From: Trypanosoma brucei
Lineage: Eukaryota
Reading direction: 5' to 3'
DNA: 64,000 nucleotides
NCBI GenBank assembly: GCA_000002445.1
Contig: CP000069.1
Location: 800,001 to 864,000 of the forward strand
Shown here: positions 4,313-9,743 of the stretch, one piece after another
Numbering within the stretch: position 1 is the first letter of the stretch
Layout of the letters: each line of letters opens with the position of its first letter
Translations under genes and position numbers: made by a program
Notes under the pieces: generated by a model
Seen by the model: the letters and a program-made list of their open reading frames with translations, nothing else
The model's database searches: none
What the model was told of the DNA's origin: nothing

Positions 4313-5197
4313 ATGCCAAACGAAACCGCGGGTAAGCCTCCTAAGGTTTTCCAAACTAATGGAAAATTACCACGTGGCAGTGACCCCACATGTGATGATG
4401 TGGAGTTCACCCATGAAGGCGAGGTGGTAGTGACTTCTTCCGACGGGAAGAAGTTTCGCCGTAGTGTTTGTGTCTTCATCATGAACGAAAACGGCCATTT
4501 CCTGGGATGTCGGCGGTACGATGATCGCAGCACAATACAGTGTGTTCAAGGTGGTGCGAAGAGGGGTGAAACGGTTCAACAAACTGCGACTCGTGAAGTA
4601 ATGGAAGAGATCGGGGTGCACTGCGACCAACTTCAGTTCATTAGTGAGATCACCTACTCGAAACCTGAGTGTGGCGAACCCCAGAACTGTGACGGACCAC
4701 GTTCTGCCTTTCGCTACAAATCTAAATCATGGAGACGTATCGGAATTGTGGGTCAGGAACTGTATCCCCTTCTCTATAGTATGCAGTCGTCTGTCATAAA
4801 CCATTTGAACTTCCATTCCGTTCCGGGCACCAGACGGGAATTCATCGGGGCAGAGTGGGTTCCACTTCATGTTTTGCGCAATAAATGCTCAAAGTCGAAG
4901 CAGGTGGCGGTATCCAATATGTGTGACGCTGTCGAAGAAATTTTGTGGGGGCAATCACGATCTCCACGCCGTGATTCACACTCTGCTGATGCCGGCAGGT
5001 TGAATGAGTTGAAGAAGGACATTGGAAGCAGCTCACAGCACGAACTTGGGGACACGATGAATGACATGGTAAATAGTTGTCAGCGGAAACGACGGCGTAA
5101 GAGAAAAGGGAAGAGTGGGAATAAGAATCAATTGTTACATGAGGAGGGAGGTTCCCTTCAGATGAATTTACTTGGAAACCCCACCTCCTGCGAGTGA
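4313..5197 (+). CDS. NUDIX hydrolase
   Basis: Canonical Nudix box Gx5Ex7REUxEExGU is present as GGAKRGETVQQTATREVMEEIGV. ATG start at 4313. The C-terminus carries a strongly basic KRRRKRKGKSGNK tail (NLS-like). No PTS1. Confidence 0.85.
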   Translation: MPNETAGKPPKVFQTNGKLPRGSDPTCDDVEFTHEGEVVVTSSDGKKFRRSVCVFIMNENGHFLGCRRYDDRSTIQCVQGGAKRGETVQQTATREVMEEIGVHCDQLQFISEITYSKPECGEPQNCDGPRSAFRYKSKSWRRIGIVGQELYPLLYSMQSSVINHLNFHSVPGTRREFIGAEWVPLHVLRNKCSKSKQVAVSNMCDAVEEILWGQSRSPRRDSHSADAGRLNELKKDIGSSSQHELGDTMNDMVNSCQRKRRRKRKGKSGNKNQLLHEEGGSLQMNLLGNPTSCE

Positions 5198-5536
5198 GAC
5201 GGGTGGGGGTTTTCGTAAAGAAAAACGACACCTCGTATAGCTCTCACAGTGGCATTGTCACATCGCATAAAAATAATGTTTAATATCCTCTTTGCATTTG
5301 GCTCCTCGCAGTGTACATCACTAATTATTCCTTTTCCTGTTACTACTTGTTACCACGTCTTACCATTTTGTTAGTGCCCATGTGTCGTGCACACGTTGGC
5401 GCTTTTCCTTTCGTTTTTTTTAAACCTCCTCACTTACTTCCTGAATAGTGCTAGTGATTTGTATTCACCAACCCTTAAGGTGCCATTGCCATACTTGAGG
5501 CCCTGAAGAGGTGTGCGCAGGGAACTTGGCGGGTAA

Positions 5537-6031
5537 ATGTACCGCACTCTCACACCGTCATGCAAAAAATTCAGCGGGTTTTACACGACTTTCCCCCGTC
5601 GATGTAACACCACTATTTTGATTCCCTTCCGAATCTTCTCCATATTACTGTACCTCACGGCACTCATTTGCGTGGCTGGATCAAGTGATGATTTTGTATT
5701 GATTGAGTCTCGGGATAATGAGGTATCTGGCGGTGGTGATCGTGTGGACCTTCGCCGATCTGTAAATGTTTATTTAGTTGTTAGCTTCATGTTGCTTTTC
5801 GTCACCTGCTGGGGTATTTTTACGGGACGTACGCTGCGAAGTGGTACCGTGAACTTTATGCACTGCTGCTCCCACACAACAGCTGCAATAGCTTTGATAG
5901 TGATATGGTGTCTGAAGTTACATTTACATCGAATGTGGCATGTATTTTACGCCTTCGGTGCCATTCCTACCGCAATGGAAGTGTGTGCGCTGTGTGCGTC
6001 GTATTATCGTGGTTTGGATAGTTATTTGTGA
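5537..6031 (+). CDS. possible small hydrophobic protein (164 aa), doubtful
   Basis: ATG-initiated ORF in the 2.5-kb gap between the NUDIX and USP genes. It has 3-4 hydrophobic segments (ILLYLTALICVAGS; VYLVVSFMLLFVTCWGIF; AAIALIVIWCL). No homolog recognised. It could be a chance ORF in the UTR. Confidence 0.2.
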   Translation: MYRTLTPSCKKFSGFYTTFPRRCNTTILIPFRIFSILLYLTALICVAGSSDDFVLIESRDNEVSGGGDRVDLRRSVNVYLVVSFMLLFVTCWGIFTGRTLRSGTVNFMHCCSHTTAAIALIVIWCLKLHLHRMWHVFYAFGAIPTAMEVCALCASYYRGLDSYL

Positions 6032-6679
6032 AAATTTGGTTTTGTGCTTTATTGCTGCAGTTGTTGTTTTGGTTAGTGCCTTGTTCTTCGACATCCTTGT
6101 CTGTTTTACCCAATTATTTTTGATTGGCGTGTGAGTTTTACAATAGTTTGTTGCCAATTCAAATTGTGTTTCTCCCCCATTTTTTTGTACTCACGCATAT
6201 AAGCTAGGTAGATGATATTATAAATTTATCTTTCGTTGTGCAGTGTTAGACGCAGGTTTATATGGTGCATCTAGATATATGGAGACTAAAGATATCGTCC
6301 TGGTATCTATTTCTTTTTTTTGTGTGTGTGTGTTGCCTTGTTGAGGGGGAGTGGAAAAATATTATCGGAAAGTAAATAACGTCACTGCAGGAGACTTTCG
6401 AGTGAGGGAAGAGAGATGGGGATGAAGAGTGTCTTCACCTTTCCTCCTTCCTCCAGGAGTGTGTTATTTTGCATCCGGTTGTGTAAATTAGTGAAAAGGC
6501 TGCGTATTGGTTTCTAGTTCTTTTTTTAAATTCGCATTGTGTTCCGCTTCCCGTTACTGCGATCACTTGTGAGCGTTTGTTTTCGTTCCCCTCGAATTAA
6601 ATATCATAGGTAATTGCATATTCTCGTATAAAAGATAGGGGTTTATATTCCTTACCCTATTCAACTCTCCCTCTTATTG

Positions 6680-6777
6680 TGGCTCGCTGATGAATTAATT
6701 TTTCTGAGTGTTTTCTTAGAGTTCCGTAACGGGCATGATAAGCACACAAATTATGAACCCTTTAACTCTGAGAGCCA
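6680..6777 (+). ncRNA. candidate C/D-box snoRNA (about 98 nt)
   Basis: 5'-UGGCUC-gc-UGAUGA (C box 6688-6693) ... CUGA (D' 6704-6707) ... UGAUAA (degenerate C' 6736-6741) ... CUGA (D 6768-6771)-GAGCCA-3'. The 6-nt flanks UGGCUC (6680-6685) and GAGCCA (6772-6777) are perfectly complementary, forming the canonical terminal stem that brings the C and D boxes together. It is intergenic. The overlapping track ORF 6677..6868 has a TTG start and is rejected as coding. Confidence 0.3.
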
Positions 6778-7700
6778 CATCGATTACCCCTCCTTTTTTT
6801 TTCATATTACTGGTTGGATAATAAAACAAAATGTGACAACGAAACACAGAAATCGTGATCCCTATTGATACACGTTTTTCAGCTGCGGATTATCAAAACT
6901 GTGTGAGATGAAGTATAAAAATTATCTACTACATTTGCGTACGATGTTAACAACGAGCTGTGAGGAAATTGTTTCCACGGCGAGTTTTTTTTTCCAATTT
7001 ATTTGTGTATACTGCAAGTAACCTTCTGCTTTTTTATTCTCCTTCTCCTCTTATTATCTGTGTTTTAACACTTCTTTATCGCTATTTTGCGTCTACTTTG
7101 GTTTTTTTTCTTTTCCACACGCATGTTTGAATAAATAACACATTCACCAGACCCGAATTACAAGGAAGAAGAAAATTTGACATAACACACGTCGTCGATG
7201 AGGCAAAGATAACAACAACGACAAAAAAAAGGTAAAAACATGTGCGATAAAGTTGACAAGAGAACGCGCGTAGACCATCAAGAGCTGCGTTTAGCACTAA
7301 TTCCTGCAGTCGCTTTATTATTAAGTAACTGTGGTGCGAAGGGGAAACCCAAATGGTAAAAAGGGGAGGAAATGTTGATGAGAGGAACTTGTAAGTTTGA
7401 TTCTTTCCTGAGGTAGTGTGTATTACGAAAATTAACTTGTGAGAAAGCATTCAAATGTTGTTTTGAAGGTCGACAGCACCGATATTAAGTAAGTTGAATT
7501 GTGAGTGTTTATGTTCCACTTATTCAAATTCGGGCATTCACAAAGTGCTGATGAGATTAATAATGGGGTGCACTTTCTTTTTTTCTTTTCCTTTTAATTT
7601 TCTTTCTCTCTCCTCTATTTCCTAAAAGGTTAGCTGTAGGGAAAGAAATATTGTGCTTTTCTTTACCAGGTGAAAGTGTGTAGCCACCGCAGGCCTTGCC

Positions 7701-9743
7701 ATGTCGAAAACAATTTGCAAATGTTGTGTGGTGTGGAAACCCAGCGAGTTTTTAGAAGCCGCTGCCAGGCGTTGTATGAAACCTCAAGATGTAGCATCGG
7801 ATCAAAAAAAGCTGTTCTGTGCGATGCGCAGCGTTGCCGATGGAATTGGTTATGCAGGGAGTGCTGAAGCTGCTGCGGATTTAGGAAGCATCAAATCATG
7901 TGATAATGATCCGCAACTTTGGATGTGTCTTCGCTGTGGGTTATATTGCTGTGGAGTGCACCGAAAGTCGCATTATGACAACTCGAGAATGTCTGGTGTT
8001 GGCACAGACGATAAAATAAATGGGGGCCACCGTATCTTTTTTGCCGTGAAACCGAGATGGGGGACGGATGTGAACTCACCTGCCGTTGGTGCACCGTTGC
8101 CGACAGTTACGATAAACTTGTGTCAAGTCGAATCACCTGAGAGGCGTACCGTAACGATGAATAACTTGAAGGTTTCAAAGGTTTCATTTGAAAAGGTAGG
8201 GACGTATGGCATTATATCGTGTGTGGAATGCCATGAAGACCCGATCAAGTTGCCTGTGCGGAACAGCTTACCATGTTTAGGGGTTGACTTGATAACTCTT
8301 TGCGAAAATGTAGCGAAGGTGTTACACTGCGTCGAGAGAAACATTTCTTTGGCTCCTGATTACGACGAAGGCTCGTTCGGGGCTCCCCGTGCTCGCGGCG
8401 TACTGGATTCAGGAATTGCAACAGACACGAGGCGTCAAAACAGCAACTATGAAACGTATTCTTATGTGGAGACGAATAAGCAGGCCAACTCACGTGCAGC
8501 AACCTCTTCTAACAGTCGTTGCGTGAGAGCACGGGCGGGCACACTAGTGGAGGCTTGTATCTCCGGCTTTGAAAATCGGCGCAACACATGTTATTTCAAC
8601 TCCGTTCTCCAATGTATTCTTCAATGCAATACCTTTATTGATTTTATGATCCGTCAAAAATTCACCGGTTCACACACGTTGGTGCATCATATGTCCGAAA
8701 TGATAGGGTTTATGAAGAGCGGCCCGTGCGCAGGTGATAGACAAGGTATCGTGGATGGCCTTGCCCGTGCTTTGATGGGCAGTTTATCTGAAATTGTTCC
8801 AATGTTTGGTGACGGGGATCAACAGGACAGTCAGGAACTCTTCATTACGCTGATCAATGGTATCGCTGATGAGTTAGATAAGGGTAAAAGTGAAGAAGAA
8901 AAGAAAGGGAGTCAACGTGTCCCTTTCGAAGGTATGCTCTGTACTACAGTAACATGCAGAGGGTGTAAAAACCAAGTCAAACGGGATGAAGTGTTCATGG
9001 CGCTTTCAATACCCGTTACGAACAGCGTTGAAGATAGCCTTGAAAAACTTTTCGAAAGATCGACACTTAACGGGGATTCTCAGTACGCCTGTGAAGTGTG
9101 CTTTAACAAACTATCTCCTGCGGAGCAAACGAAGAAAAACAACGATATTCGTGCGGAGAACGAGGCACGGAAGCTCAGGAAGAAAGCAAATGCGGAAGCA
9201 AAGAGTCTCAACTGTCTCTACCAAGACGCAGACGTGGAAACATCAATCGGGAGATTTAATGGATCACTCGCGTTACACTTACTACGGTTCAAGTGCGACG
9301 ACCGTGGCGTATACAAAGTTCCTGGCGCAGTTTCTTTCCCAAAAAGACTGAACCTTAGTAAGTATATAGTGGGCAGTGCGGCAAGCGGATGTGGGGACAC
9401 GAAAATGCCGCAAACGATCGTCCAAACAAATGTGAACACACATCGTAGTGTTTCCCGACCCAGCAATTCGCTGGTACATGTTTCCGGTGGCGATGGCTGT
9501 ACGAGTAGCGTGGAGGAGAGTACTGACAACCGACGGAGTCAGTTGGACTTGGAGCTCGTCGGCATAATCTCGCATGTTGGTTCACTTCACGGTGGGCATT
9601 ATGTTGCTCATGTACGGAGCCATACCAAACCATCCATGTGGTTCTACTGCGACGATGAAGAAATTTATACTGTGGATGAATCAAGTGTGTTTGAACGCGA
9701 GCAGGGTGTATATATGCTCTTCTACGACCAGCTTTACCATTAA
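7701..9743 (+). CDS. ubiquitin carboxyl-terminal hydrolase (USP/UBP family, peptidase C19) with N-terminal ZnF-UBP
   Basis: Cys box GFENRRNTCYFNSVLQCILQC and His box GGHYVAHVRSH...WFYCDDEEIYTV. N-terminal Cys/His-rich ZnF-UBP-like segment (CKCCVVWKP...WMCLRCGLYCCGVH). ATG at 7701 is preceded by a poly(Y) tract at 7560-7660. Confidence 0.9.
   Translation: MSKTICKCCVVWKPSEFLEAAARRCMKPQDVASDQKKLFCAMRSVADGIGYAGSAEAAADLGSIKSCDNDPQLWMCLRCGLYCCGVHRKSHYDNSRMSGVGTDDKINGGHRIFFAVKPRWGTDVNSPAVGAPLPTVTINLCQVESPERRTVTMNNLKVSKVSFEKVGTYGIISCVECHEDPIKLPVRNSLPCLGVDLITLCENVAKVLHCVERNISLAPDYDEGSFGAPRARGVLDSGIATDTRRQNSNYETYSYVETNKQANSRAATSSNSRCVRARAGTLVEACISGFENRRNTCYFNSVLQCILQCNTFIDFMIRQKFTGSHTLVHHMSEMIGFMKSGPCAGDRQGIVDGLARALMGSLSEIVPMFGDGDQQDSQELFITLINGIADELDKGKSEEEKKGSQRVPFEGMLCTTVTCRGCKNQVKRDEVFMALSIPVTNSVEDSLEKLFERSTLNGDSQYACEVCFNKLSPAEQTKKNNDIRAENEARKLRKKANAEAKSLNCLYQDADVETSIGRFNGSLALHLLRFKCDDRGVYKVPGAVSFPKRLNLSKYIVGSAASGCGDTKMPQTIVQTNVNTHRSVSRPSNSLVHVSGGDGCTSSVEESTDNRRSQLDLELVGIISHVGSLHGGHYVAHVRSHTKPSMWFYCDDEEIYTVDESSVFEREQGVYMLFYDQLYH

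What the first reader, a model, noticed from the sequence alone, without database searches (positions are those of the whole stretch)
6680..6777. Candidate orphan C/D-box snoRNA in the NUDIX-USP intergenic region
Within about 98 nt the sequence shows, in correct order and spacing, a C box (cUGAUGA, 6688-6693), a D' box (CUGA, 6704-6707), a degenerate C' box (UGAUAA, 6736-6741) and a D box (CUGA, 6768-6771). The C box is preceded by UGGCUC and the D box is immediately followed by GAGCCA. These form a perfect 6-bp terminal stem, which is the hallmark that juxtaposes the C and D boxes into a kink-turn. I scanned the other TGATGA and TCATCA occurrences in non-coding parts of the window (for example 7549 and 47764, and 17447 and 38545 on the minus strand). 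None has a D box or terminal stem, so this is not a pattern that turns up everywhere. The putative guide regions are 5'-uuaugaacccuuuaacu-3' upstream of D and 5'-aauuaauuuuu-3' upstream of D'. Trypanosomatid snoRNAs usually occur in reiterated clusters, so a solitary gene here would be unusual and could mark an unannotated locus.
Basis: seen in the sequence. Interest (0 to 1): 0.6.

Follow-up and report, generated by a model that had tools for sequence, protein, structure and literature searches.

The report
Known trypanosome rRNA-methylation guide snoRNA
The flagged sequence is a real box C/D small nucleolar RNA, but it is almost certainly the already catalogued Trypanosoma brucei snoRNA TB6Cs2C1, which guides a conserved 2'-O-methylation of 18S rRNA (Am721) and sits next to its known H/ACA-like partner, so it is neither orphan, solitary nor new.

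Summary
All four boxes are at the stated coordinates. The terminal stem is 8 bp (6678-6685 / 6772-6779), not 6. That motif combination occurs once in the window against about 0.003 expected by chance.

- **Not orphan.** The guide upstream of box D (6749-6766) forms an 18-bp duplex with T. brucei 18S rRNA 718-735. This places nucleotide 6763, the 5th upstream of D, opposite A721. Published mass spectrometry and RiboMeth-seq report A721 as Am and assign it to snoRNA TB6Cs2C1.
- **Not solitary.** An H/ACA-like single-hairpin RNA with an AGA box lies 64 nt downstream (6844-6911). Its pocket predicts UUGAU-Psi-A-ACGAUU, which matches LSU-beta Psi1160, the published target of TB6Cs2H1.
- **Conserved.** The C/D plus H/ACA pair lies at the same syntenic site (TMEM107-like gene to ubiquitin hydrolase) in T. 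cruzi, T. rangeli, T. conorhini and T. grayi. In two of these species it is tandemly repeated.
- **Ancient target.** The site matches yeast Am619 (snR47) and human Am668 (U36).
- **No second target.** The AU-only spacer upstream of D' has no identifiable target.

The window is T. b. brucei TREU927. Verdict: already known, low interest.

The parts
6678..6779 (+). Box C/D snoRNA including its terminal stem. Identified as T. brucei TB6Cs2C1. Mature ends were not determined here.
   Evidence: Boxes read. Weak full-length generic C/D hits in Rfam span 6678-6779. The motif is unique in the window. Orthologues found in 4 other Trypanosoma species.
6678..6685 (+). 5' strand of the 8-bp terminal stem (UGUGGCUC).
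   Evidence: Perfect complement of 6772-6779. Not conserved in other species, which show only about 3 bp.
6687..6693 (+). Box C (cUGAUGA).
   Evidence: UGAUGA is present in all orthologues.
6694..6703 (+). Spacer upstream of D' (AUUAAUUUUU). No target found, so probably a non-functional guide in T. brucei.
   Evidence: Replaced relative to the AACCGAU(G) of stercorarian orthologues. No consistent complement in 120 kinetoplastid-type rDNA contigs. The literature assigns TB6Cs2C1 a single site.
6704..6707 (+). Box D' (CUGA).
   Evidence: Conserved except in T. cruzi, which has GUAA.
6723..6733 (+). Short internal hairpin between D' and C' (UCCG-uaa-CGGG).
   Evidence: A hairpin sits at the same place in the orthologues with a different sequence, CUCC-nnnn-GGAG. 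The register differs by one nucleotide, so this is not strict column-wise covariation.
6735..6741 (+). Box C' (aUGAUAA, degenerate).
   Evidence: The UGA core is conserved: UGAAAA, UGACAU and UGAUAU in the orthologues.
6749..6766 (+). Antisense guide element upstream of box D. It pairs with T. brucei 18S rRNA 718-735 (16 Watson-Crick + 2 G.U pairs). Nucleotide 6763 lies opposite A721.
   Evidence: T. brucei SSU 712-736 was read nucleotide by nucleotide from PMC10662448 supplement 13. GAACCCUUUAAC is invariant in all orthologues. A unique perfect match was found in 120 of 120 rDNA contigs.
6768..6771 (+). Box D (CUGA).
   Evidence: Invariant in all orthologues.
6772..6779 (+). 3' strand of the terminal stem (GAGCCACA).
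6844..6911 (+). H/ACA-like single-hairpin snoRNA with an AGA box, identified as TB6Cs2H1. Lower stem 6844-6849/6899-6904. 5' pocket 6850-6856. Upper stem 6857-6861/6887-6891. 3' pocket 6892-6898. AGA box 6906-6908.
   Evidence: Second conserved block in alignment A1. Hairpin-pocket-AGA fold in T. brucei and 4 orthologues, with an A-U to G-C change in the lower stem of T. conorhini. The pocket predicts UUGAU-Psi-A-ACGAUU, which contains the mass-spectrometry fragment AU-Psi-AACG of LSU-beta Psi1160, guide TB6Cs2H1. The predicted target lies 217 nt upstream of the UmGmPsi motif in kinetoplastid-type LSU rDNA, and 1377 - 1160 = 217.

Best explanation
Window 6678-6779 (+) encodes a canonical box C/D snoRNA, almost certainly the catalogued Trypanosoma brucei snoRNA TB6Cs2C1.

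Proposed mechanism:
- The RNA is cut out of the polycistronic RNA polymerase II transcript that also carries the flanking TMEM107-like and ubiquitin-hydrolase genes. This step is inferred from known trypanosome snoRNA biogenesis.
- Boxes C and D are brought together by the terminal stem and assemble the SNU13/NOP56/NOP58/NOP1 (fibrillarin) snoRNP. This step is inferred from the family.
- The 18-nt element just upstream of box D pairs with 18S rRNA 718-735. The methyltransferase then 2'-O-methylates A721, the nucleotide paired to the 5th guide position upstream of D. The pairing geometry is shown here. The modification and its assignment are shown in the literature.
- The D'/C' half appears to be structural only in T. 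brucei.

Sixty-four nucleotides downstream, 6844-6911 encodes the partner H/ACA-like snoRNA TB6Cs2H1, which guides pseudouridine 1160 of LSU-beta rRNA. The two genes form the small cluster TB6Cs2.
For: 1. **Motif and stem beyond chance:** a single hit in the window against 0.003 expected.
2. **Phylogenetic conservation at the syntenic site** (NUDIX, TMEM107, snoRNAs, UCH) in T. cruzi, T. rangeli, T. conorhini and T. grayi. The snoRNA blocks are essentially the only part of the 1.7-kb spacer with detectable similarity.
3. **Target sequence:** published 18S primers give the sense sequence UGUUGCUGUUAAAGGGUUCGUAG. The per-nucleotide table of PMC10662448 gives T. brucei SSU 712-736 as GUUGCUGUU[Am721]AAGGGUUCGUAGUUG, with guide TB6Cs2C1 and mass-spectrometry fragments UU(Am)AAG and (Am)AAGGGU. 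The window guide places its 5th nucleotide (6763) opposite A721.
4. **Methylation data:** RiboMeth-seq gives SSU_721 a score of 0.80, falling to 0.72 on NOP1 silencing (p = 0.0089), with guide TB6Cs2C1.
5. **Expression:** TB6Cs2C1 and TB6Cs2H1 are both listed as expressed, at about 5,200 and 4,700 RPKM in two procyclic libraries.
6. **Partner RNA:** the neighbouring H/ACA-like RNA predicts exactly the context and spacing of LSU-beta Psi1160, the TB6Cs2H1 target.
7. **Organism:** the window's proteins are exact T. b. brucei TREU927 proteins on a 1,618,915-bp record. That length is what I recall for chromosome 6, which fits the 'TB6' name.
Against: - The published sequence and coordinates of TB6Cs2C1 (Liang et al. 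2005; Rajan et al. 2020) could not be read because the papers are not held. No paper in the searchable library prints the sequence. The identification therefore rests on chromosome, cluster composition and both targets, not on direct sequence identity.
- Rfam has no family for this RNA. Only sub-threshold generic C/D hits were found, about 20 bits against gathering scores of 41-55.
- TB6Cs2C1 had 0 RPKM in one FPLC-fraction library.
- The long terminal stem is not conserved outside the T. brucei group.
Confidence: 0.95

Rival explanations
1. It is a previously unannotated, orphan and solitary C/D snoRNA. On this view it is distinct from any catalogued T. brucei snoRNA.
For: - There is no Rfam hit at gathering threshold.
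- The unit is single-copy in the 64-kb window.
- I could not read the original TB6Cs2C1 sequence.
Against: - The guide matches a mapped Am site that is already assigned to a chromosome-6 snoRNA.
- The adjacent H/ACA-like RNA matches the target of that snoRNA's cluster partner.
- A second, uncatalogued chromosome-6 C/D plus H/ACA pair with the same two targets is very unlikely.
Confidence: 0.03
2. It is a chance occurrence of short box motifs in UTR or intergenic sequence, or part of the small ORF 6677-6868.
For: - The boxes are short.
- TGATGA occurs 46 times on the + strand of the window.
- A 63-codon TTG-initiated ORF overlaps the region.
Against: - The expected number of such motif-plus-stem combinations is 0.003 per window.
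- The boxes and a 12-nt guide core are invariant across five species while the flanks are unalignable.
- The cross-species alignment contains gaps that are not multiples of three, and conservation follows RNA elements rather than codons.
Confidence: 0.01
3. Besides guiding Am721, the RNA has a second function through its D' half. Possibilities are methylation of a non-rRNA target, or auxiliary pairing or chaperoning of pre-rRNA. This is not exclusive of the main explanation.
For: - Stercorarian orthologues keep an invariant AACCGAU upstream of D'.
- The T. conorhini version can pair with AGGCAUUGGU in the GAUUAGAGGCAUUGG region of kinetoplastid-type LSU rDNA.
- The U36/snR47 relatives in other eukaryotes are double guides for SSU plus LSU.
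Against: - In T. brucei the spacer is only 10 nt, is AU-only and has no rRNA match.
- The nucleotides nearest D' differ between species, and the T. cruzi D' box is degenerate (GUAA).
- Published tables give TB6Cs2C1 one site only.
Confidence: 0.07

Closest known systems
Trypanosoma brucei snoRNA TB6Cs2C1 (cluster TB6Cs2, with TB6Cs2H1; the Liang et al. 2005 / Michaeli laboratory catalogue)
   Same: - The window is T. b. brucei TREU927, and the record length fits chromosome 6.
- It is a C/D snoRNA with an H/ACA-like partner next to it.
- The predicted target is SSU Am721 in GUU[Am]AAGGGU.
- The partner's predicted target is LSU-beta Psi1160 in AU-Psi-AACG.
   Different: No difference was detected. 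Direct sequence comparison was not possible because the papers that print the sequence are not held.
Yeast snR47, human SNORD36 (U36A/B/C), Arabidopsis AtU36 and Dictyostelium CD25 (Rfam RF01203 / RF00049, clan CL00051)
   Same: They guide methylation of the homologous 18S adenosine. This is the first A of GUUAAA, 41 nt downstream of the 530-loop Um. The paired positions are yeast 578/619, human 627/668, Arabidopsis 580/621, Dictyostelium 571/612 and T. brucei 680/721.
   Different: - There was no detectable match to the Rfam SNORD36 or snR47 models at E <= 10.
- U36 and snR47 are double guides that also target LSU (yeast Am2218, human Am3703). The T. brucei RNA has no identifiable second guide.
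- The genomic context differs: a polycistronic intergenic cluster with an H/ACA-like partner rather than an intron or an independent gene.
Trypanosomatid H/ACA-like (AGA-box, single-hairpin) snoRNAs
   Same: Element 6844-6911 has one hairpin with a pseudouridylation pocket. An AGA box lies 3 nt from the predicted 3' end and 14 nt from the top of the pocket. It is co-clustered with a C/D snoRNA.
   Different: Nothing unusual was seen.

Membership tests
Box C/D snoRNA (2'-O-methylation guide) | Box C (RUGAUGA) near the 5' end and box D (CUGA) near the 3' end. | tested here: met
   cUGAUGA at 6687-6693 and CUGA at 6768-6771. UGAUGA and CUGA are present in all five species. The first position is C rather than the consensus purine in T. 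brucei.
Box C/D snoRNA (2'-O-methylation guide) | A terminal helix that brings C and D together (kink-turn context). | tested here: met
   An 8-bp perfect stem at 6678-6685/6772-6779. It is met in T. brucei only; other species show about 3 bp.
Box C/D snoRNA (2'-O-methylation guide) | Internal D' and C' boxes. | tested here: met
   CUGA at 6704-6707 and aUGAUAA at 6735-6741, with a short hairpin between them. C' is degenerate, and D' is degenerate in T. cruzi.
Box C/D snoRNA (2'-O-methylation guide) | An antisense element of >=10 nt ending next to box D, with a known Nm opposite the 5th nucleotide upstream of the box. | tested here: met
   6749-6766 pairs with SSU 718-735 (18 bp). Nucleotide 6763 lies opposite A721, which is Am by mass spectrometry and RiboMeth-seq.
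Box C/D snoRNA (2'-O-methylation guide) | A stable small RNA associated with fibrillarin/NOP1, NOP56/58 and SNU13. | not testable with these tools
   Literature only. TB6Cs2C1 has about 5,200 RPKM in two small-RNA libraries. Am721 drops slightly on NOP1 silencing.
TB6Cs2C1 (specific catalogued T. brucei snoRNA) | Guides SSU Am721. | tested here: met
TB6Cs2C1 (specific catalogued T. brucei snoRNA) | Belongs to a chromosome-6 cluster together with the H/ACA-like TB6Cs2H1, guide of LSU-beta Psi1160. | tested here: met
   An H/ACA-like RNA at 6844-6911 has a pocket that matches the Psi1160 context and spacing. The window is TREU927, on a record of 1,618,915 bp. That this record is chromosome 6 rests on my recollection of its length.
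TB6Cs2C1 (specific catalogued T. brucei snoRNA) | Sequence identity to the published TB6Cs2C1 sequence or coordinates. | not testable with these tools
   Liang 2005 (PMC1370750), Rajan 2020 (PMC7549662) and Liang 2007 (PMC1828925) are not held. The supplement of PMC3273796 is not held. A sequence-string search of the library was negative.
SNORD36 / snR47 family (Rfam RF00049, RF01203; clan CL00051) | Guides the conserved 18S Am (yeast A619, human A668). | tested here: met
   Same sequence context and the same 41-nt offset from the 530-loop Um.
SNORD36 / snR47 family (Rfam RF00049, RF01203; clan CL00051) | A significant match to the family covariance model. | tested here: not met
   No hit to RF00049 or RF01203, even at E <= 10. 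Only generic sub-threshold C/D hits were found (snoZ162, snoZ157, snoR27, SNORD87).
SNORD36 / snR47 family (Rfam RF00049, RF01203; clan CL00051) | A second guide for the LSU site (yeast Am2218, human Am3703). | tested here: inconclusive
   The D' spacer AUUAAUUUUU has no consistent complement in 120 kinetoplastid-type rDNA contigs.
Trypanosomatid H/ACA-like snoRNA | A single hairpin with an internal pseudouridylation pocket, an AGA box about 14-15 nt from the target position and 3 nt from the 3' end, and a bipartite guide matching a mapped Psi. | tested here: met

The most novel reading that the evidence does not exclude
The most novel reading still open concerns the D' half of this snoRNA.

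In stercorarian trypanosomes, the conserved AACCGAU element upstream of D' might guide a lineage-specific methylation. A candidate site is a Cm in the GAUUAGAGG-C-AUUGG region of LSU rRNA. T. brucei would then have lost this function when its spacer was replaced by AUUAAUUUUU.

Alternatively, the AU-rich T. brucei spacer might act on a non-rRNA target.
Probability: 0.06. Interest if true: 0.25.

Novelty: already known. Interest (0 to 1): 0.08.

Why it matters
This matters mainly as quality control. A reader with no tools correctly recognised a real C/D snoRNA from box order and a terminal stem, so that kind of reading can work. The claims that made the finding interesting (orphan, solitary, unannotated) do not hold.

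The locus is the known TB6Cs2 cluster. Its C/D member installs one of the few 18S ribose methylations shared by yeast, human, plant, amoeba and trypanosome ribosomes. No open question becomes newly testable.

Tried and rejected
- **Rfam:** at gathering threshold there was nothing in the whole window. At E <= 10 there were only generic sub-threshold C/D hits.
- **Original catalogue papers:** Liang 2005, Rajan 2020 and Liang 2007 are not held. The Michaeli 2012 supplement is not held. The Psiscan paper does not mention TB6Cs2.
- **Literal sequence search of the paper library:** the snoRNA strings gave no hits. The shorter guide core found only 18S PCR primers, which nevertheless confirmed the target sequence.
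- **T. brucei rRNA sequence:** cells in supplement 11 of PMC10662448 are truncated at about 500 nt. I used the per-nucleotide table in supplement 13 instead.
- **D' guide targets:** scanning 120 kinetoplastid-type rDNA contigs gave no consistent target for the T. brucei or stercorarian D' spacers. One partial match for T. conorhini in LSU was noted but not pursued.
- **Formal column-wise covariation counts:** MAFFT misregisters the C box, the internal hairpin and the H/ACA lower stem between T. brucei and the other species. I therefore folded each orthologue separately and report structural conservation rather than pair statistics.
- **TREU927 record name:** the look-up returned only the identical T. 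equiperdum OVI contig.
- **Leishmania:** I did not extend the synteny search there because it would not change the verdict.

Full report
**1. The observation**

- TGATGA at 6688-6693
- CTGA at 6704-6707
- TGATAA at 6736-6741
- CTGA at 6768-6771
- TGGCTC and GAGCCA flanking the outer boxes

The helix is longer than reported. TGTGGCTC (6678-6685) is the perfect reverse complement of GAGCCACA (6772-6779), giving 8 bp.

I scanned both strands of the window for TGATGA followed by CTGA with a flanking Watson-Crick stem. This locus was the only hit at every stem threshold from 4 to 8 bp. Second-order Markov simulations give 0.14, 0.04 and 0.003 expected hits per 64 kb for stems of >=5, >=6 and >=8 bp. 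The 102-nt RNA folds with z = -3.4 against shuffles.

**2. Where the window comes from and what surrounds the element**

Two ORFs translate to proteins identical to T. brucei brucei TREU927 entries on a 1,618,915-bp record:
- 5537-6031 matches XP_845389.1, a TMEM107-like protein (PF14995).
- 4313-5197 matches XP_845388.1, a NUDIX mRNA-decapping hydrolase.

The downstream ORF 7701-9743 is a UCH-type ubiquitin hydrolase. The element therefore lies between the TMEM107-like gene and the hydrolase, not directly after the NUDIX gene. All genes and the element are on the + strand.

**3. Conservation**

The gene order NUDIX, TMEM107, UCH is kept in T. cruzi, T. rangeli and T. grayi. The T. conorhini contig begins inside the spacer.

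Searching the syntenic spacers with the candidate found orthologues in all four species. Similarity between the T. brucei spacer and the others is essentially confined to about 250 nt of the 1.7-kb spacer (window 6661-6910).

In the C/D part:
- UGAUGA, CUGA (D) and the 12-nt core GAACCCUUUAAC are invariant.
- D' is CUGA everywhere except T. cruzi, which has GUAA.
- C' keeps a UGA core.
- A short hairpin sits between D' and C' in every species, with a different sequence: CUCC/GGAG in the others against UCCG/CGGG in T. brucei.

The long terminal stem is not conserved. The other species have about 3 bp, for example GUG/CAC and GCG/CGC. Rfam has no family for this RNA. Only generic sub-threshold C/D models align end to end over 6678-6779.

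**4. The target**

The complement of the conserved guide core turned up in the literature as trypanosome 18S rDNA reverse primers, CGAACCCTTTAACAGCAACA and CTACGAACCCTTTAACAGCA.

The per-nucleotide modification table of Rajan et al. 2023 (PMC10662448, supplement 13) gives T. brucei SSU 712-736 as GUUGCUGUU[Am721]AAGGGUUCGUAGUUG.

Window 6749-6766 pairs with SSU 718-735 over 18 bp (16 Watson-Crick and 2 G.U). Nucleotide 6763, the fifth nucleotide upstream of box D, lies opposite A721. This is exactly the geometry of C/D-guided methylation.

The same table reports A721 as Am, with mass-spectrometry fragments UU(Am)AAG and (Am)AAGGGU, and names the guide TB6Cs2C1. RiboMeth-seq in PMC9283944 gives SSU_721 a score of 0.80, falling to 0.72 on NOP1 silencing, again with TB6Cs2C1 as guide.

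In 120 kinetoplastid-type 18S contigs fetched from metagenomes, the guide has a single perfect match. In 119 of the 120, the target A lies 41 nt downstream of the 530-loop U. That matches:
- T. brucei 680/721
- yeast Um578/Am619 (snR47)
- human Um627/Am668 (U36)
- Arabidopsis 580/621
- Dictyostelium 571/612

The snoRNA is therefore not orphan. It installs one of the deeply conserved 18S methylations.

**5. The neighbour**

Alignment of the syntenic regions shows a second conserved block 64 nt downstream. It folds in T. brucei, T. grayi, T. conorhini, T. rangeli and T. cruzi as a single hairpin with an internal loop, followed by AGA three nucleotides from the end. This is the trypanosomatid H/ACA-like architecture.

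The T. brucei coordinates are:
- lower stem 6844-6849 / 6899-6904
- pockets 6850-6856 and 6892-6898
- upper stem 6857-6861 / 6887-6891
- AGA box 6906-6908

The lower stem shows an A-U to G-C exchange in T. conorhini.

The two pocket strands predict the target UUGAU-Psi-A-ACGAUU. The literature lists TB6Cs2H1 as guide of LSU-beta Psi1160 in the RNase T1 fragment AU-Psi-AACG. The predicted 13-mer occurs once in each of 11 long rDNA contigs, 217 nt upstream of the UmGmPsi motif. In T. brucei that motif is at LSU-beta 1377, and 1377 - 1160 = 217.

Chikne et al. list TB6Cs2H1 and TB6Cs2C1 side by side, both expressed at roughly 4,700 and 5,200 RPKM in two procyclic libraries. TB6Cs2H1 is credited to Liang et al. 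2005.

**6. Identification and remaining doubt**

Four things coincide with the published cluster TB6Cs2: the T. brucei chromosome implied by the 'TB6' name, the cluster composition (one C/D plus one H/ACA-like), and both modification targets.

I could not read the papers that print the sequences. No held paper contains the strings. Direct sequence identity is therefore the one untested point. I put the identification at about 0.95.

**7. What does not fit a full double guide**

The spacer between C and D' in T. brucei is 10 nt, made only of A and U, and has no consistent rRNA complement. Published tables give TB6Cs2C1 one site only.

The stercorarian orthologues carry an invariant AACCGAU there. 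However, the nucleotides closest to D' vary and the T. cruzi D' box is degenerate.

The T. conorhini version can pair with AGGCAUUGGU in the GAUUAGAGGCAUUGG region of kinetoplastid-type LSU rDNA. I could not test this against Trypanosoma LSU. It remains an open minor lead.

**8. Comparison with known families and verdict**

The element is a member of the box C/D snoRNA class; all sequence-testable features are met. Functionally it is the trypanosome counterpart of snR47/U36 at the 18S site. It is not detectably a sequence-level member of the Rfam SNORD36 or snR47 models, and it lacks their second (LSU) guide.

Solitary snoRNA genes have been known in T. brucei since 2011 (PMC3273796), and this one is not solitary in any case. 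In T. grayi the C/D plus H/ACA unit is duplicated with a 256-nt period. In T. rangeli an extra H/ACA copy precedes the C/D gene.

The finding is a correct recognition of a real but already catalogued snoRNA. Novelty: already known. Interest: low.

Noticed in passing
window 6844-6911 (+): An H/ACA-like single-hairpin snoRNA with an AGA box lies 64 nt downstream of the C/D snoRNA. Its pocket matches LSU-beta Psi1160, the published target of TB6Cs2H1.
   Followed up: yes
L009:898-985 and 1154-1241 (T. grayi); L008:5084-5170 and 5348-5434 (T. rangeli): The C/D plus H/ACA unit is tandemly reiterated in other species. T. grayi has two C/D copies 256 nt apart, and its second H/ACA copy is degenerate (AGA changed to AAA, lower stem broken). 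T. rangeli has H/ACA copies on both sides of the single C/D gene. T. brucei has one copy of each.
   Followed up: partly
window 6694-6703; orthologues in L006, L008, L009, L010: The spacer upstream of D' is AUUAAUUUUU in T. brucei. In the four stercorarian-type species it contains an invariant AACCGAU. The T. cruzi D' box is degenerate (GUAA). The T. conorhini spacer can pair with AGGCAUUGGU in the GAUUAGAGGCAUUGG region of kinetoplastid-type LSU rDNA. No consistent target was established.
   Followed up: partly
window 6696-6701 and 6748-6753: UAAUUU in the D' spacer is complementary to AAAUUA just 5' of, and overlapping, the D guide. At the corresponding places the other species have CGAU and AUCG. 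This could be a weak intramolecular pairing that co-varies, or it could be coincidence.
   Followed up: no
window 6726, 6870, 6873, 6886: The TREU927 window and T. equiperdum OVI (L132) are identical across both snoRNAs. T. b. gambiense DAL972, a T. b. equiperdum assembly and three Logan assemblies share 6726 G>C (internal hairpin of the C/D RNA) and 6870 A>G, 6873 C>T, 6886 C>T (upper part of the H/ACA hairpin). Boxes, guides and pockets are untouched.
   Followed up: yes
window 5537-6031 (+): The gene immediately upstream of the snoRNAs is a conserved 164-aa TMEM107-like protein (PF14995), not the NUDIX hydrolase. The NUDIX gene (4313-5197) is named 'RNA decapping enzyme / m7GpppN-mRNA hydrolase' by its sources.
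   Followed up: partly
The cross-species alignment has frame-breaking gaps, and conservation follows RNA elements. It is not a coding sequence.
   Followed up: partly
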